A stretch of DNA of 20,000 nucleotides from an uncultured virus (IMG/VR IMGVR_UViG_3300028886_001624) (Duplodnaviria > Heunggongvirae > Uroviricota > Caudoviricetes): IMG/VR virus record IMGVR_UViG_3300028886_001624, positions 115,816-135,815 of that record, one strand, 5' to 3'. Positions 3,008 through 16,925 of this stretch are shown here, in pieces. Each line of letters starts with the position of its first letter. Position 1 is the stretch's first letter. The translations under genes and the position numbers were made by a program. The notes beneath the pieces are model-generated. The model was not told where the DNA came from. It searched no databases and worked only from the letters and a program-made list of their open reading frames with translations.

Positions 3008-3709
3008 GAATACAAAGACATTGCACCCGTTGTTAAACATGATTATGCAAAGCCATATAGGGTCAAGTACGCAAACGGAAAGACAGCCATTGTGCGCCTT
3101 TGGCTTGCATCTAACGGATTGGTAGCCAAGTTGGCTAAAGGGAGAAAGGTACACGGCTATGTGCTTGGTTATTACGACTACAAGGATTGGGTGTCGTTGA
3201 AGGCAGTGGAGAAGAAGCCGACAAGCACGTTCACCCTCATGAAGAAAAGGGCAACAGATGCCTTGAAGTATCTCACACAGAGCGGAATGTGGCCTTCAAT
3301 TAAGAAGGAGATAGAACATTTCCTTTCCGATGATGCCATCATACAAGCCGTAGCCGATGCCATTGACAAGGATTCATACGAGTCTTTCTACAAGGAATGC
3401 TACGAGAACGGGAAATTCCCATGGTGTCACACCACACAAGTGTTCGAATCCTTTGCCGCCAAAAGATGTTGGCAGTCTATCCCATATCAAAGGTGGGAAA
3501 GGGAAAGGATGAACCAAAGAATAAGTAATGCCATTGAGGATAGGCAAGACTTCAGTTACCGTTGGACTAACGGCTATGACAATACAATAGAGATTAGCGG
3601 TGGCGAAGAACTAAGGGGATGGCTATCATGTGAATACAGAGGCTGCGGAAACGGACATTACTACCTTCTATTTGATGCTACCCATGCCATCTTCTACGAG
3701 GACGATTGA
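3005..3709 (+). CDS. hypothetical phage protein (234 aa) with C-terminal EYRGCGNGHYYL motif
   Basis: Long ORF after cassette; Gly/Cys/aromatic-rich C-terminal motif looks conserved; function unknown. Confidence 0.85.
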   Translation: MEYKDIAPVVKHDYAKPYRVKYANGKTAIVRLWLASNGLVAKLAKGRKVHGYVLGYYDYKDWVSLKAVEKKPTSTFTLMKKRATDALKYLTQSGMWPSIKKEIEHFLSDDAIIQAVADAIDKDSYESFYKECYENGKFPWCHTTQVFESFAAKRCWQSIPYQRWERERMNQRISNAIEDRQDFSYRWTNGYDNTIEISGGEELRGWLSCEYRGCGNGHYYLLFDATHAIFYEDD

Positions 3710-3741
3710 AAAGTAATTAAAAATAGATTAATAATAAAAAG

Positions 3742-4014
3742 ATGAACAAAGATATTGAAAGAATAAAGGGTATTGTGCTCTCGAAAGGGAGCACAGACCC
3801 AAAAGGCGGCAGGGTGCTCAAACTAGAGGCCGGAAAGGTTACGGTACTATCGAGGGCCAAAGAAAGACTTTATCCCGTGGCCCTGCGCGTATACCAAGAA
3901 GAATTGCAAGTGGTTTTCGTTAATAAGAGAAAGAGATTCTTTTCCTATCCATTGCTATCACTGCAAAGTGATGCTCCTAAGTTATTCGAAAAGGTCATAT
4001 CCGTCTTTTGTTAA
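3742..4014 (+). CDS. basic hypothetical protein (90 aa)
   Basis: A-rich leader, co-oriented. Confidence 0.75.
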   Translation: MNKDIERIKGIVLSKGSTDPKGGRVLKLEAGKVTVLSRAKERLYPVALRVYQEELQVVFVNKRKRFFSYPLLSLQSDAPKLFEKVISVFC

Positions 4015-4039
4015 CAAATGTTAAAATGTTGGCAAATAT

Positions 4040-4077
4040 TTTGGATTGTCAAATATTTTATATATCTTTGCAATGTC
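4040..4077 (+). promoter_or_regulatory. Bacteroidota-type promoter driving the tandem ncRNA locus
   Basis: TTTG...TATCTTTG(4063-4070); 21 nt AATATTTTATATATCTTTGCA is identical to the tRNA-Pro promoter at 5188-5208. Confidence 0.8.
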
Positions 4078-4172
4078 TTGAAAAGGACGATAAAACATAA
4101 TTAAAGAACTCGGTTGCGGTGGACAACACGCCAAACTATAGTTAAGAGTTAGGGCATTTAAAAACCACCTTT

Positions 4173-4297
4173 TGGGAAGTACTAGAGGAGAACCATCTTG
4201 CAATCCTGCAAGGGTGGATGTAGACAAATAGGTATCAAGTTTGTGCTTGATATGTCGCCTACGGGCGGCTTCGGCGGTGCAAATCCGTCCTTCCCAA
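4173..4297 (+). ncRNA. tRNA-like structured RNA, copy 1 (125 nt)
   Basis: Acceptor-like TGGGAAG/CTTCCCA+A, TA linker, CTA/TAG stem enclosing an extra hairpin, 8-9 bp arm, UACG-capped variable arm, T-arm GGCGG-TGCAAAT-CCGTC. Confidence 0.8.
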
Positions 4298-4354
4298 CAA
4301 ATTTCTTGCGGTGGACAAGGACGGAATTAATCCGAAAAAAAACCACCTATCTTT

Positions 4355-4470
4355 TGGAAGATACCGGAGGAGAACTATCCGCAAGGGTAGATGTAGACAA
4401 ACGGGTATCAAGTATGTGCTTGATATGTCGCTTACGAGCGGCTTCGGCGGTGCAAATCCGCCTCTTCCAA
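4355..4470 (+). ncRNA. tRNA-like structured RNA, copy 2 (116 nt)
   Basis: TGGAAGA/TCTTCCA+A, TA, CCG/CGG, CTATCC-GCAA-GGGTAG, GTATCAAGT-ATGT-GCTTGATAT, GTCGCT-TACG-AGCGGC, GGCGG-TGCAAAT-CCGCC. Confidence 0.8.
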
Positions 4471-4489
4471 CACTTTTGTTTGACGCGAT

Positions 4490-4538
4490 GAGGGTTCGGC
4501 TTTTCTAAATCTTTACGGCCGAACCCTCTATTTTTATT
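4490..4538 (+). terminator. intrinsic terminator closing the ncRNA locus
   Basis: GAGGGTTCGGC...GCCGAACCCTC 11-bp stem followed by TATTTTTATT. Confidence 0.7.
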
Positions 4539-4567
4539 CAACCCCAATTGAAACATATATCACACCA

Positions 4568-5187: not shown

Positions 5188-5212
5188 AATATTTTATATA
5201 TCTTTGCATTGT
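5188..5212 (+). promoter_or_regulatory. promoter of tRNA-Pro
   Basis: TATCTTTG at 5199-5206, 12 nt before the tRNA 5' end. Confidence 0.8.
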
Positions 5213-5218
5213 GACAAT

Positions 5219-5292
5219 CGGGGTGTAGCGCAGTTGGTTAGCGTGCTTGTTTTGGGAACAAGTGGTCGTGTGTTCGAGTCACACTACCCCGA
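5219..5292 (+). tRNA. trnP: tRNA-Pro (anticodon UGG), CCA not encoded
   Basis: CGGGGTG/TACCCCG acceptor, GCGC-AGTTGGTTA-GCGT D-arm, CTTGT-TTTGGGA-ACAAG anticodon arm, GTGTG-TTCGAGT-CACAC T-arm. Confidence 0.97.
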
Positions 5293-5330
5293 CATCTGCT
5301 TGAATCTATACTTGTATTTTCTACTACCAA

Positions 5331-5368
5331 ATTCCAACCGGCTGTGAAGTTAGTTGGAATTTTATTTT
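5331..5368 (+). terminator. terminator after tRNA
   Basis: AATTCCAACCGGCT-GTGA-AGTTAGTTGGAATT followed by TTATTTT. Confidence 0.75.
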
Positions 5369-5641: not shown

Positions 5642-5848
5642 CTAGCGACAATATGTGTCTATCCTTGTGTCATAGTGCTCATATCTAATCTTTTCACCCA
5701 ACAACCTAGCAACCTTCTTGCACTCCAATACATCTTCCCATTTGCATCCCATTGTTGTCCGGTAGCAGAATCCATCACGAAGCCAATCCACTGAATAGAT
5801 TTTAGTTTTTCTGACTATCTTTTTTTCATTTCCAATTATTTTTTTCAT
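5642..5848 (-). CDS. small basic hypothetical protein (68 aa)
   Basis: ORF downstream of the minus-strand cassette; TAG stop. Confidence 0.7.
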   Translation of the reverse strand: MKKIIGNEKKIVRKTKIYSVDWLRDGFCYRTTMGCKWEDVLECKKVARLLGEKIRYEHYDTRIDTYCR

Positions 5849-15364: not shown

Positions 15365-15547
15365 AAACAAATAAGAGTTGAGGTGATTCCTCAACTCTTT
15401 CTTTTTATCGTTTCTATTGTATTTCTTTCTGTTCTTGTGAACTTTTGTGACAGATACGAAGTGTCCTCCGCCGTTCCTTTCGAAAGAATCGGCCCTTGAA
15501 ATGAATCTGATGATGTCAGATTGTTTGTTTGACTTTGGAATTTTCAT
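15260..15547 (-). CDS. ArfA/BrfA-like basic protein, probably expressed from a non-stop mRNA
   Basis: Start overlaps the upstream stop (ATGA); FVSVTKVHKNRKKYNRNDKKK; terminator inside the ORF. Confidence 0.6.
   Translation of the reverse strand: MKIPKSNKQSDIIRFISRADSFERNGGGHFVSVTKVHKNRKKYNRNDKKKELRNHLNSYLFLIFLIKRFPISLGHLCEVCSFPSQRIFGVTQFLS
15364..15406. terminator. bidirectional intrinsic terminator
   Basis: AAGAGTTGAGG-TGATT-CCTCAACTCTT (15373-15399), T-rich tails on both strands. Confidence 0.85.
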
Positions 15548-16293
15548 ACTCTTTCTAGTTTTCCGTCAGTTATCAAGAATGGTGCCCTGCAATCGATGCA
15601 AGCCCATTTATCCGTTATTACCGGCGAGTCGACCAATTGTGTGTGGCCGAATATCTGATAATCATATCCGTCCACAATTGAATCCTCGTTTATAACATAA
15701 TTATCTATTCCGGACTTTTCCAAGTCAAGTTTTTCTCTGATGTCTGACCATAATATCGAGCCGGTGTCATATCCTATGTATGTCCGGTATTTTGAAATGT
15801 CGGACAATGATGTTACACCGTCCCTAGACGTGATTAACCTATTTAGGTTATCGGCATTTAGTTCACCTATTATGGCTTTATTCCTTTCGTACCAAGAACG
15901 CATTACACCGGCGTGGGTGAAGAGATATTTCCTATTGTCTATGGTTTCCTCATGTGCCAACTTGAAGAGATTTCTGTTTGTTGTGTATATATCCCTATAG
16001 GTATATGCATTGCTAGAGGAATATCTAGTTGACCTTGGGAATGAGTCAAATATATAATGAAGGCAATGGTTGCCCAACAATAGGACAACCTTGTCTGCAT
16101 TATCGAGTTTGAACTTTACTATTTCCTTAAAATTATTAAGTTCATCCTTCCTTGATATACCCTCGTCCTCATATCTGTCGACGTAGTCACCTAGGAATAT
16201 AATCTTGCCTACATCGTTTCCGTGTGCCGCAACACCGTCCTTCCAAAACGTCCTTCCGTGGATGTCCGGAATTACCATCAGTCCTCTACCCAT
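15544..16293 (-). CDS. calcineurin-like metallophosphoesterase
   Basis: DIHG, GDYVDR, GNH, HAG, FGHT motifs. Confidence 0.92.
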   Translation of the reverse strand: MGRGLMVIPDIHGRTFWKDGVAAHGNDVGKIIFLGDYVDRYEDEGISRKDELNNFKEIVKFKLDNADKVVLLLGNHCLHYIFDSFPRSTRYSSSNAYTYRDIYTTNRNLFKLAHEETIDNRKYLFTHAGVMRSWYERNKAIIGELNADNLNRLITSRDGVTSLSDISKYRTYIGYDTGSILWSDIREKLDLEKSGIDNYVINEDSIVDGYDYQIFGHTQLVDSPVITDKWACIDCRAPFLITDGKLERV

Positions 16294-16925
16294 ATCTTCA
16301 AGTTATCGTTTCTTTCAATCTGTTCCTTTATTCTAGCGTCCAATTCATGCCAAGATATTGGCGTGAAATCGTTGAAGTCCACACCAACGTCATACTGTGT
16401 AGGGAAGAGCATGTTGAAGCACCGCTCACAGTCACGACCGGTATTCCTATGACGGACATTGGACAAATGAACGTGTCCGTGCAGTTGATATACAAGCGCG
16501 TTTTTGTCTCTGAAAGTTCCACTGTAGCACAAGAACGGGAAGTGGTTGAGATAGACTTTCCTGCCCTCTATTTCTATTAGCATCTGATGGGATGAGAATT
16601 CAAAGAGACGGTTATATTGCTCTTCCGTCTGAGGACCGTTCTTTCTGTCGTGGTTGCCCCTAATGAAAATTGTCTTGCCGTTTAGTCGCTCGAGAACATC
16701 CTTGTATGGCTTGAATCCTCCCCAAGCGAAATCACCCAAGTTAAAGACAATACCGTCTTCCGGAACCTTGTTGTTGTAGTTCTCAATCAAGGCTTCGTTC
16801 ATTTCTTGCACATCCTTAAACGGCCTCTTGCAGAATTTAAGGATATTCTCATGGTTGAAATGTAAGTCGGACGTGAAGAATATCTTTGAACCGTCTTCGT
16901 ATTTAAAATTTACTCTCGTTGACAT
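16278..16925 (-). CDS. calcineurin-like metallophosphoesterase (SDLHFNH type)
   Basis: SDLHFNH, LGDF, GNHD, HFP, HGHVH, DVGVD motifs. Confidence 0.92.
   Translation of the reverse strand: MSTRVNFKYEDGSKIFFTSDLHFNHENILKFCKRPFKDVQEMNEALIENYNNKVPEDGIVFNLGDFAWGGFKPYKDVLERLNGKTIFIRGNHDRKNGPQTEEQYNRLFEFSSHQMLIEIEGRKVYLNHFPFLCYSGTFRDKNALVYQLHGHVHLSNVRHRNTGRDCERCFNMLFPTQYDVGVDFNDFTPISWHELDARIKEQIERNDNLKIWVED

What the first reader, a model, noticed from the sequence alone, without database searches (positions are those of the whole stretch)
4173..4470. Tandem pair of tRNA-mimic RNAs with an expanded D-arm and no anticodon loop
Seen: two ORF-less paralogous units (4173-4297, 4355-4470) fold into the same enlarged cloverleaf. 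Elements are a 7-bp acceptor stem plus discriminator A, a U8-A9 linker, a 3-bp D-like stem enclosing GAGGAGAA-[hairpin]-AUGUAGACAAA, an 8-9 bp arm capped by only 4 nt in the anticodon position, a UACG-capped variable arm, and a 5-bp T-arm with loop UGCAAAU. Stem differences between copies preserve pairing: TGGGAAG/CTTCCCA vs TGGAAGA/TCTTCCA, CTA/TAG vs CCG/CGG, GTCGCC/GGCGGC vs GTCGCT/AGCGGC, CCAT/GTGG vs CTAT/GTAG. The junction sequences are invariant. The locus has a promoter sharing 21 nt with the tRNA-Pro promoter and its own terminator. Inference: a phage tRNA-shaped ncRNA that cannot decode, probably matured by RNase P/Z and CCA-adding enzyme. Possible roles are a decoy for tRNA-targeting defence toxins (anticodon nucleases, acceptor-end modifiers), a ribosome/EF-Tu/synthetase ligand, or an RNP scaffold. 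I do not recognise it as a named RNA family.
Basis: partly seen in the sequence, partly recalled or inferred. Interest (0 to 1): 0.92.

Follow-up and report, generated by a model that had tools for sequence, protein, structure and literature searches.

The report
Anticodon-less tyrosine-tRNA mimics in jumbo phage
Two neighbouring genes in a giant virus of gut bacteria make RNAs shaped like tyrosine transfer RNA but with the decoding loop sealed shut; they belong to an undescribed family that may serve the virus in the known fight over tyrosine tRNA.

Summary
Units 4173-4298 and 4355-4471 are 90% identical paralogues that fold as described. ARAGORN and Rfam do not recognise them.

They belong to a family of at least 47 distinct sequences in 26 other viral contigs, in arrays of up to five beside tRNA, tmRNA and GOLLD genes. 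Of 34 base pairs, 26 show compensatory change.

New here: the family descends from tRNA-Tyr(GUA).
- A model built from the units aligns end to end with phage tRNA-Tyr.
- In two of four Bacteroidales genomes its only hit is host tRNA-Tyr.
- The anticodon loop is replaced by a longer stem with a 4-5 nt loop. Most members carry a GNRA hairpin inserted in the D-loop. The D/T-loop elbow contact co-varies.
- Complete relatives (295-412 kb) encode a tyrosyl-tRNA synthetase (5 of 5) but none of four other synthetase cores tested.

Function is inferred: most likely a non-decoding tRNA-Tyr mimic that counters tRNA-Tyr-cleaving immunity. The main rival is a role with the phage synthetase.

The scan had noted a look-alike window in another genome, but for a different feature.

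The parts
4052..4076 (+). Promoter-like box with a Bacteroidota-type TAnnTTTG motif (4063-4070), shared with the tRNA-Pro promoter
   Evidence: Matches 5188-5212 at 24 of 25 bases. A similar box precedes tRNA-Gln in the same genome. RNA-library contigs from three studies all begin at 4085, which is only a weak hint of a 5' end.
4112..4172 (+). Leader A, a candidate H-type pseudoknot. Stem 1 is 4113-4116 with 4124-4127. The loop GGUGG (4118-4122) pairs with CCACC (4165-4169). UUU then precedes the unit.
   Evidence: Conserved in front of 22 units that do not directly follow another tRNA or unit. In 21 distinct rows, 95.7% of cells are paired. The outer stem-1 pair occurs as CG 9, GC 7 and UA 5. 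One stem-2 pair occurs as GC 19, AU 1 and UA 1.
4173..4298 (+). Unit A, a tRNA-Tyr-derived mimic. Acceptor stem 4173-4179 with 4290-4296, then A73 at 4297 and C74 at 4298. D-stem 4182-4184 with 4229-4231. D-loop insert hairpin 4193-4217. Anticodon-position arm 4232-4253 (9 bp plus UUGU). Variable arm 4254-4269. T-arm 4273-4289.
   Evidence: Fold. Model R1 scores it 106.8 bits. Covariation.
4305..4354 (+). Leader B, the same candidate pseudoknot. Stem 1 is 4305-4308 with 4316-4319. GGUGG (4310-4314) pairs with CCACC (4343-4347).
4355..4471 (+). Unit B, a tRNA-Tyr-derived mimic. Acceptor stem 4355-4361 with 4463-4469, then A73 at 4470 and C74 at 4471. The D-loop insert hairpin has a GCAA loop.
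   Evidence: Fold. Model R1 scores it 116.3 bits. Its insert hairpin is identical to that of units in L122, L152, L155, L170, L174 and L178.
4490..4538 (+). Terminator-like hairpin (12 bp, 15-nt loop, 4490-4528) followed by a U-rich tail
   Evidence: Fold of 4060-4540. The consensus scan did not flag it because of the loop length.

Best explanation
Shown:
- The two units are members of an undescribed family of phage RNAs that descend from tRNA-Tyr(GUA).
- They keep the acceptor stem, A73-C74, U8, the 3-bp D-stem, the long variable arm, the T-arm and the D-loop/T-loop elbow contact.
- The 7-nt anticodon loop is replaced by an extended 7-9 bp stem closed by 4-5 nt.
- In most members a GNRA-capped hairpin with invariant flanks is inserted in the D-loop.

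Inferred:
- They are transcribed from a tRNA-type promoter and cut out by RNase P and RNase Z like their tRNA neighbours.
- They receive CCA, and the phage has its own CCA-adding enzyme.
- They accumulate as stable L-shaped RNAs that cannot decode.

Proposed function (inferred, about 35-40%):
- They act as non-decoding stand-ins for tRNA-Tyr that bind proteins which recognise the tRNA-Tyr body.
- The most likely such proteins are host immune nucleases of the Septu/PtuAB or retron-Eco7 kind, which shut down infection by cutting tRNA-Tyr.
- The units would therefore titrate or block these nucleases without disturbing translation.
- They would form one arm of a phage tRNA-Tyr toolkit, alongside the phage's own tRNA-Tyr genes with altered identity (U1-A72) and its own tyrosyl-tRNA synthetase.
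For: Structure and family:
- 47 distinct units score at least 94 bits in 26 viral contigs plus the window.
- 26 of 34 pairs show compensatory change.

tRNA-Tyr descent:
- In 4 of 7 relatives (G001, G002, G004, G007), model R1's best real-tRNA hit is phage tRNA-Tyr(GUA) (42.5-46.3 bits, full length).
- In 2 of 4 Bacteroidales genomes searched whole, the only hit is host tRNA-Tyr(GUA) (45.1 and 42.8 bits).
- The tRNA-Tyr D-loop GAG|UAGACAAA reappears in the units split by the insert.
- Insert-free and short-insert intermediates exist in G006-G008.
- The elbow contact is kept. D-loop position 18 and T-loop position 55 switch together, A with G or G with U/C, in 12 of 12 rows of A5. The raw tally is 45 A/G and 12 G/U among 59 parsed sequences.

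tRNA-like processing context:
- Spacers are 4-6 nt, and UU lies upstream in 46 of 47 units.
- CAAC ends all 47, and a full encoded CCA follows in 3 of 47.
- The window's genome has a CCA-adding enzyme gene.

Expression:
- Contigs from 4 RNA libraries of 4 studies cover the locus.

Tyr toolkit:
- A tyrS equivalog (380 bits) is present in 5 of 5 complete relatives.
- Four other aaRS core families are found in 0 of 5 each.
- Three further TyrRS-bearing genomes (G006-G008), picked by their TyrRS, all hold units.

Literature:
- Septu and retron-Eco7 cleave the tRNA-Tyr variable loop. T6 escapes by tandem amplification of its tRNA-Tyr gene. The authors suggest it acts as a 'decoy or supplement' (PMC13096335, passages).
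Against: - No binding or inhibition was tested, and no tRNA-Tyr nuclease was sought in Bacteroidales hosts.
- In the one published test, changing the anticodon of a T5-like phage tRNA-Tyr abolished rescue from retron-Eco7. The authors concluded that decoding function is needed (PMC11555353, passages). A simple decoy was therefore insufficient there.
- A decoy must compete with a large tRNA pool unless it binds much more tightly.
- The invariant D-loop insert has no assigned role in this model.
- TyrRS could not be shown in the window's own record, which is only 45% complete.
- The TyrRS co-occurrence lies within one phage lineage, so it is not independent evidence.
- The RNA evidence comes from assembled contigs. 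These cannot show ends, strand or added CCA, and DNA carry-over cannot be excluded.
Confidence: 0.38

Rival explanations
1. The units are ligands or substrates of the phage tyrosyl-tRNA synthetase. They would be tyrosylated on an added CCA end but barred from the ribosome. They could then serve as a non-ribosomal tyrosine carrier, or form a TyrRS-RNA particle that regulates or retargets the enzyme.
For: - TyrRS is the only one of five aaRS core families found, and it is in 5 of 5 complete relatives.
- The units keep A73 and C74 and the same first two acceptor pairs (U1-A72, G2-C71) as the phage tRNA-Tyr, in 47 of 47.
- The older subfamily (G006/G007) and 6 of 45 parsed units keep G-U-A inside a 5-nt loop, GGUAA. 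That loop is two substitutions from the tRNA-Tyr anticodon loop.
- Recalled, not from any call: tyrosine-accepting viral TLSs are charged without an anticodon mimic, and a fungal TyrRS binds group I introns.
Against: - 36 of 45 units have a UCGU loop with no GUA.
- Recalled: anticodon bases are major identity elements for bacterial TyrRS.
- No transferase that would use such a carrier was looked for.
- T-stems vary freely, so no tuned EF-Tu affinity is evident.
Confidence: 0.25
2. The units are tRNA-shaped processing signals, or punctuation. Their job would be to recruit RNase P and RNase Z to release or stabilise neighbouring RNAs such as the leader RNA or GOLLD.
For: - One unit type (UGGUAAG) directly precedes a GOLLD-like RNA in L126. 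The flanks suggest the same in L131, L147, L176 and L179.
- A conserved leader would be released by 5' cleavage.
Against: - Arrays of 4-5 units lie back to back with 4-6 nt spacers and nothing between them to release.
- The insert sequences and the elbow contact are invariant, which is more constraint than a cleavage signal needs.
Confidence: 0.12
3. The units modulate the ribosome or a translation factor. For example, they could occupy tRNA sites or bind EF-Tu, IF3 or YqeY-type tRNA-binding proteins encoded by the phage.
For: - The L-shape and acceptor end are kept.
- The window's genome encodes IF3 and a YqeY-domain protein.
- YqeY is present in 5 of 5 relatives.
Against: - There is no specific link beyond co-occurrence within one lineage.
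- An insert at the elbow would be expected to hinder ribosome contacts (inference).
Confidence: 0.1
4. The units are decaying tRNA-Tyr pseudogenes with no function.
For: They descend from a tRNA and cannot decode.
Against: - All helices are maintained by compensatory changes, including the new 9-bp arm (7 of 9 pairs).
- The junction sequences are invariant in 44 of 44 sequences.
- Unit types are conserved across phages whose helicases are only 40-61% identical.
- The locus is present in RNA libraries.
Confidence: 0.03

Closest known systems
Phage-encoded tRNA-Tyr used against Septu/retron-Eco7 (T5, T6)
   Same: - A phage tRNA-Tyr lineage.
- High dosage through strong promoters or tandem gene repeats.
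- The same tRNA species that known defences cut (PMC11555353 and PMC13096335, passages).
   Different: - Those are decoding tRNAs, and rescue needed the anticodon.
- The units here have no anticodon loop, most carry a D-loop insert, and their hosts are Bacteroidota.
Canonical bacterial class II tRNA-Tyr (Rfam RF00005 tRNA)
   Same: - 7-bp acceptor stem, A73, U8, and a 3-bp D-stem.
- Long variable arm, 5-bp T-stem with 7-nt T-loop, and the elbow contact.
- Full-length alignment to the family model.
   Different: - No 7-nt anticodon loop.
- A hairpin of 10-40 nt inserted in the D-loop.
- No RF00005 hit at E<=10 and no ARAGORN call.
Tyrosine-accepting tRNA-like structures of plus-strand RNA viruses (TLS-Tyr)
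   Same: Viral tRNA-Tyr mimicry without a working anticodon. This comparison is recalled. Papers PMC10870377 and PMC7749636 were seen only in a search listing.
   Different: - Those lie at the 3' end of an RNA genome, with different topology and eukaryotic hosts.
- The units here are free-standing genes in tRNA arrays of a DNA phage and descend from a real tRNA.
tRNA-like processing elements (mascRNA of MALAT1, herpesvirus TMERs)
   Same: tRNA-shaped RNAs that do not decode and are cut by tRNA-processing enzymes (recalled; the general point appears in PMC4810234, passages).
   Different: - Those are eukaryotic or herpesviral and unrelated in sequence.
- They have no link to a synthetase or to tRNA-Tyr.
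Bacterial Y-RNA-like YrlA tRNA mimics
   Same: A bacterial or phage ncRNA with a tRNA-like module (recalled).
   Different: - Recalled: YrlA's tRNA-like module is a circular permutation, joined to a Ro-binding stem and placed beside rsr.
- There is no Rfam hit here and no such stem.
RNA anti-CRISPRs (solitary repeat mimics)
   Same: A phage non-coding RNA that copies a host RNA to occupy an immune protein (recalled). The resemblance is in how it would work, and only if the decoy model is right.
   Different: The RNA mimicked and the immune system targeted are both different. Nothing of this was tested here.

Membership tests
tRNA (Rfam RF00005 / ARAGORN definition) | Score at or above the family threshold, or a call by a tRNA finder | tested here: not met
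   - There is no RF00005 match to either unit at gathering score or at E<=10.
- ARAGORN calls only tRNA-Pro in the window.
- ARAGORN does call the insert-free relatives in G008, as 'tRNA-???' and tRNA-Thr.
tRNA (Rfam RF00005 / ARAGORN definition) | Anticodon arm with a 7-nt loop | tested here: not met
   Loops of the arm in 45 parsed units are UCGU 36, GGUAA 6 and other 3. Only one of these is longer than 5 nt (an 8-nt loop), and none is a 7-nt loop.
tRNA (Rfam RF00005 / ARAGORN definition) | Acceptor stem, T-arm and D/T-loop elbow | tested here: met
   - The 7-bp acceptor stem is 100% paired.
- 4 of 5 T-arm pairs co-vary.
- Positions 18 and 55 switch together.
tRNA-Tyr lineage (by descent) | Closest real tRNAs are tRNA-Tyr(GUA) | tested here: met
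   - Phage tRNA-Tyr is the best real-tRNA hit in G001, G002, G004 and G007.
- Host tRNA-Tyr is the only hit in 2 of 4 Bacteroidales genomes.
- In G003 and G006 the best real tRNA was tRNA-Met(CAU). In G005 the best was not identified.
tRNA-Tyr lineage (by descent) | Class II features: long variable arm, 3-bp D-stem, A73 | tested here: met
   The variable arm is 5 bp plus a tetraloop, the D-stem is 3 bp, and A73 is present in 47 of 47 units.
tRNA-Tyr lineage (by descent) | GUA anticodon and tyrosine acceptance | not testable with these tools
   - GUA survives only inside GGUAA loops: 6 of 45 units, and 4 of 5 units in G006/G007.
- Charging needs an experiment.
Viral 3'-terminal tRNA-like structures (TLS) | Located at the 3' end of an RNA virus genome, with a pseudoknotted acceptor arm | tested here: not met
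   These are internal genes of a DNA phage. The acceptor is an ordinary 7-bp stem formed by the 5' and 3' ends.
YrlA / Y RNA | Match to the Rfam model | tested here: not met
   No match to any Rfam family other than chance-level hits.
tRNA-mimic immune decoy (works-like class, not a curated family) | Binds or blocks a tRNA-directed defence nuclease | not testable with these tools
   The only support is the context and literature cited.

The most novel reading that the evidence does not exclude
The phage runs a private tyrosine system. Its own TyrRS would charge these anticodon-less tRNA-Tyr mimics, whose elbow insert keeps them off the ribosome. That would create a pool of Tyr-RNA, or a TyrRS-RNA particle, used for something other than decoding. 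Possible uses are a non-ribosomal tyrosine transfer or an RNA-protein inhibitor of host immunity.
Probability: 0.2. Interest if true: 0.92.

Novelty: new variant of a known kind. Interest (0 to 1): 0.8.

Why it matters
- Phage tRNAs are now known to be weapons against tRNA-cutting immunity, and tRNA-Tyr is a proven target. A conserved, multi-copy tRNA-Tyr derivative that has given up decoding would be the first natural example of a DNA virus evolving a dedicated tRNA-shaped non-coding effector.
- The family comes with a graded series of intermediates: true tRNA-Tyr, then a sealed loop, then an added D-loop hairpin. This shows how such an effector arises from a tRNA.
- It also ties together three puzzling features of jumbo phages: a lone TyrRS gene, odd tRNAs with a rewired elbow (A18 with G55), and ncRNA islands holding tmRNA and GOLLD.
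- It offers a natural scaffold for engineering non-decoding tRNA bodies.
- It warns that tRNA finders miss this class.

Tried and rejected
Searches that found nothing:
- Rfam at gathering score and at E<=10 gave only chance-level hits on the units.
- ARAGORN gave nothing.
- blastn of the locus, and of a relative's array, against 50,697 GenBank phage records gave no match.

Pattern scans:
- The first pattern, with GGAGGAGAA, found 0 loci because most copies read AGAGGAGAA.
- The 19-base pattern gave 61 viral loci. Of these, 30 hold real units and 31 are chance hits.
- The same pattern in genome contigs gave 114 stretches. Eighty were fetched and none is a real unit; the best partial score is 17 bits. 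The other 34 were not examined.
- Extra motif hits in the window's genome, at 51941 and 26662, lie in coding sequence.

Ideas dropped:
- A tRNA-Gln origin was suggested by the acceptor stem of the genome's tRNA-Gln. It was dropped when the model pointed to tRNA-Tyr.
- I considered that the units copy the host variable arm better than the phage tRNA-Tyr does. This is not supported: the host arm is 3 bp and the units' arm is 5 bp.
- I considered loop-E or kink-turn readings of the invariant junction, and a preQ1-like reading of the leader. There is no Rfam support, and neither can be tested here.

Uninformative results:
- YqeY co-occurs in 5 of 5 relatives, but all are one lineage.
- Neighbour proteins: only a 68-aa ORF (5642-5848) recurs near units, in 6 loci, and it matches no family.

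Literature:
- Supplements of PMC10690425 (10,006 candidate viral RNAs) had no occurrence of the motif or of two contig names. Three files were not searched, so the family may be among its unnamed candidates.
- The Jug-phage paper PMC12880540 has no mention of tRNA, tmRNA or synthetase in its main text.

RNA contigs:
- They gave no cover over 3600-4047, 4432-4559 or tRNA-Pro. This proves nothing.
- G009 and the fragment G010 have TyrRS relatives but no unit.

Full report
**1. The observation**

The window is the last 20 kb of a 135.8-kb viral record that is about 45% complete. The record has 38% G+C and tRNA-type promoters carrying a TAnnTTTG box. The name and host range of that box are recalled, not from any call.

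Units 4173-4298 and 4355-4471 are 90% identical. They fold into the same enlarged cloverleaf, with z-scores of about -4. ARAGORN finds only tRNA-Pro at 5219-5293. Rfam 15 finds nothing on the units at gathering score or at E<=10.

The promoter box 4052-4076 repeats at 24 of 25 bases in front of tRNA-Pro. A 12-bp hairpin with a U-rich tail follows unit B. Only these two copies occur in the 135.8-kb record.

**2. A family, not a pair**

A 19-base pattern taken from the two invariant junction strands found 61 loci in IMG/VR. Thirty of them hold real units and the rest are chance matches in coding-like sequence.

A covariance model (R1) built from 44 distinct units finds 60 full-length matches (94-134 bits) and one truncated match. 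These are 47 distinct sequences in 26 contigs plus the window.

On the 44-sequence alignment:
- 96% of cells pair.
- 26 of 34 pairs change on both sides.
- The covariation score is 0.547, against 0.178 for shuffles (0 of 500 reach it) and at most 0.097 for slid partners.

Eighty fetched pattern matches from prokaryote genomes held no real unit. GenBank phages gave no blastn match.

**3. Context**

Units lie singly or in arrays of up to five, 4-6 nt apart. They are often directly behind a tRNA-Met(CAU) gene and near tRNA-Ile and tmRNA genes.

- Of 47 distinct units, 46 are preceded by UU.
- All 47 begin with UG and have UA at positions 8-9.
- All 47 end with CAAC (A72, A73, C74). In three, the next two bases complete CCA.
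- Real tRNA genes of these phages also end in A73-C74.

In L126 a GOLLD-like RNA starts right after one unit type. It scores 70 bits, below the gathering score of 150, with E 8e-18.

Five complete relatives of 295-412 kb carry two or three strong units each, at two or three loci. The window's helicase is 61% identical to theirs.

Metatranscriptome contigs from four studies of bovine gut or rumen cover the locus. One is 100% identical over 4085-4345. Contigs from three studies start at 4085. These are contigs, so they cannot show ends, strand or added CCA, and DNA carry-over cannot be excluded.

**4. Descent from tRNA-Tyr**

R1 also aligns, full length, with real tRNAs.

- The best is phage tRNA-Tyr(GUA), at 46.3, 42.5, 42.5 and 46.1 bits in G004, G001, G002 and G007.
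- Next come long-armed tRNA-Met(CAU) genes, at 27-35 bits. These were the best real tRNA in G003 and G006.
- As an independent test, four Bacteroidales MAGs were searched whole. Two gave exactly one hit each, and both are the host tRNA-Tyr(GUA), at 45.1 and 42.8 bits.
- The other two MAGs gave none. Only 150 of about 1,300 candidates were scored in each.

The alignment shows what is shared and what differs. The phage tRNA-Tyr and the units share:
- U1-A72, G2-C71 and A73-C74
- the 3-bp D-stem
- the stretch CUUCG before the T-stem
- the T-loop

The tRNA-Tyr D-loop GAG|UAGACAAA is split in the units by GAGAAC, a hairpin, and GAUG.

**5. Intermediates**

Genomes chosen only because they encode a related TyrRS hold divergent units in tandem, scoring 55-72 bits.

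- G008 units have no D-loop insert but already have a 9-bp arm closed by 4 nt. ARAGORN calls them 'tRNA-???' or tRNA-Thr.
- G006 and G007 units have a short GCAA-capped insert and a GGUAA or GGUGA loop.
- GGUAA is two substitutions from the tRNA-Tyr loop CUGUAAA. This is my reading.

In the window's subfamily:
- The arm loop is UCGU in 36 of 45 units, GGUAA in 6, and other in 3.
- The insert hairpin is capped by GNRA in 38 of 45.
- The variable arm is capped by UUCG in 26 of 45.

**6. The elbow is kept**

D-loop position 18 and T-loop position 55 switch together. A pairs with G in the window's subfamily and in some real tRNA-Tyr and tRNA-Met genes. G pairs with U (once C) elsewhere. This holds in 12 of 12 rows.

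A script over 70 distinct sequences parsed 59 of them: 45 A/G, 12 G/U, 1 G/G and 1 G/C. One G/U row (L309) is a mis-parse and, read by eye, is A with U, so it is an exception. The G/G row was not checked.

One unit inside the A/G subfamily has switched both positions back. This supports a tRNA-like L-shape.

**7. The tyrosine link**

All five complete relatives encode a full-length tyrosyl-tRNA synthetase. It scores 380 and 331 bits on the tyrS equivalog against a cut-off of 113.8, and its best solved relative is 6n0w.

Four other aaRS core families (Pfam tRNA-synt_1, 1c, 2 and 2b) are found in 0 of 5 genomes each. The cores for Arg, Cys, Met, Ala and Phe were not tested.

The sampling was not blind. 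G001-G005 were picked for their units, and G006-G010 for their TyrRS. Of the latter:
- The three genomes that are at least 95% complete, with TyrRS at least 68% identical, have units.
- The 572-kb G009 (41% identical) has none.
- The fragment G010 has none.

TyrRS also recurs in unrelated enterobacterial jumbo phages. The window's own fragment shows no TyrRS or tRNA-Tyr. It does encode a CCA-adding enzyme, IF3 and a YqeY-domain protein.

**8. The leader**

Units that do not directly follow another tRNA are preceded by NUUG-YGGUGGA-CAAN, then an A-rich linker of variable length, then CCACC-UUU.

A pseudoknot reading pairs 95.7% of cells. One pair in each stem changes on both sides. Most pairs never vary, so support is moderate. 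Its role is unknown.

**9. Function**

Nothing here tests function. What the literature shows:
- Septu and retron-Eco7 stop phages by cutting tRNA-Tyr in its variable loop.
- T5 answers with a resistant, highly expressed tRNA-Tyr.
- T6 answers by tandem amplification of its tRNA-Tyr gene (PMC13096335 and PMC11555353, passages).

A lineage that carries its own tRNA-Tyr with an altered first pair, its own TyrRS, and multi-copy tRNA-Tyr bodies with sealed loops fits a conflict centred on tRNA-Tyr. I rank a non-decoding mimic that occupies tRNA-Tyr-directed nucleases first, at about 0.38.

Against this ranking, an anticodon mutant of a T5-like tRNA-Tyr failed to rescue. In addition, the invariant insert has no role in this model.

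The chief rival, at about 0.25, is that the units are ligands or substrates of the phage TyrRS. Processing signals, ribosome or factor modulators, and pseudogenes rank lower.

**10. Novelty**

Four full-text searches and Rfam found no description. The survey of 10,006 candidate viral RNAs may include the family unnamed, and three of its supplementary files could not be searched.

The scan had noted a look-alike window in another genome (e1-5709640), but for terminator-like hairpins and not for this RNA.

Noticed in passing
window 5219-5293, promoter 5188-5212: tRNA-Pro(UGG) is driven by a near-identical copy (24 of 25 bases) of the promoter box of the mimic locus. A terminator-like hairpin lies at 5338-5357.
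   Followed up: partly
L126:2719-3198 (and flanks of L131, L147, L176, L179): A GOLLD-like RNA scores 70 bits (below the gathering score of 150, E 8e-18). It has an embedded tRNA (2790-2862) and starts just after a UGGUAAG-type unit. Jumbo Bacteroidales phages thus carry tmRNA, GOLLD and tRNA-mimic islands.
   Followed up: partly
L126:3211-3331; also L179:430-550, L131:2604-2729, L176:429-549, L134:221-344, L135:506-629, L143:34-168: A second kind of oversized tRNA-like gene, 121-135 nt. The acceptor, D-arm and T-arm match RF00005 (34-41 bits), but about 50-60 nt replace the anticodon region. ARAGORN does not call them.
   Followed up: partly
L308:115-198, L310:78-160, L140:1695-1776, L147:1926-2007: Real phage tRNA-Tyr(GUA) and tRNA-Met(CAU) genes have T-loop UGCAAAU (G at position 55) paired with A instead of G at D-loop position 18. 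This is a rewired elbow. Several of the tRNA-Met genes are 82-88 nt with long variable arms and an A1xA72 mismatch.
   Followed up: partly
G001:C1:93972-94868 and equivalents in G002-G008: TyrRS is the only one of five aaRS core families found in these jumbo phages. TyrRS is also annotated in unrelated 350-380 kb enterobacterial jumbo phages.
   Followed up: partly
G000 outside the window: L301:8230-9702, L299:6313-6840, L301:18576-18863, L300:6659-7858, L301:17492-18328: The phage fragment encodes a CCA-adding enzyme, an IF3 homologue, a 95-aa YqeY-domain protein, a TnpB (IS605 OrfB) and a PARG-like protein. It also encodes three sigma-factor genes outside the window and many BspA-type LRR proteins.
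   Followed up: no
window 5642-5848 (-): A 68-aa ORF with no family match recurs 0.5-0.9 kb from single units in L148, L159, L166, L170, L174 and L178 (40-70% identity). This marks the window locus as syntenic with single-copy loci.
   Followed up: partly
window 15544-16925 (-): Two adjacent metallophosphoesterase genes. One has a weak PHROG match to an RNA ligase family. They lie next to dNMP kinase, thioredoxin and UvrD-type helicase genes. A possible RNA-repair link was not examined.
   Followed up: no
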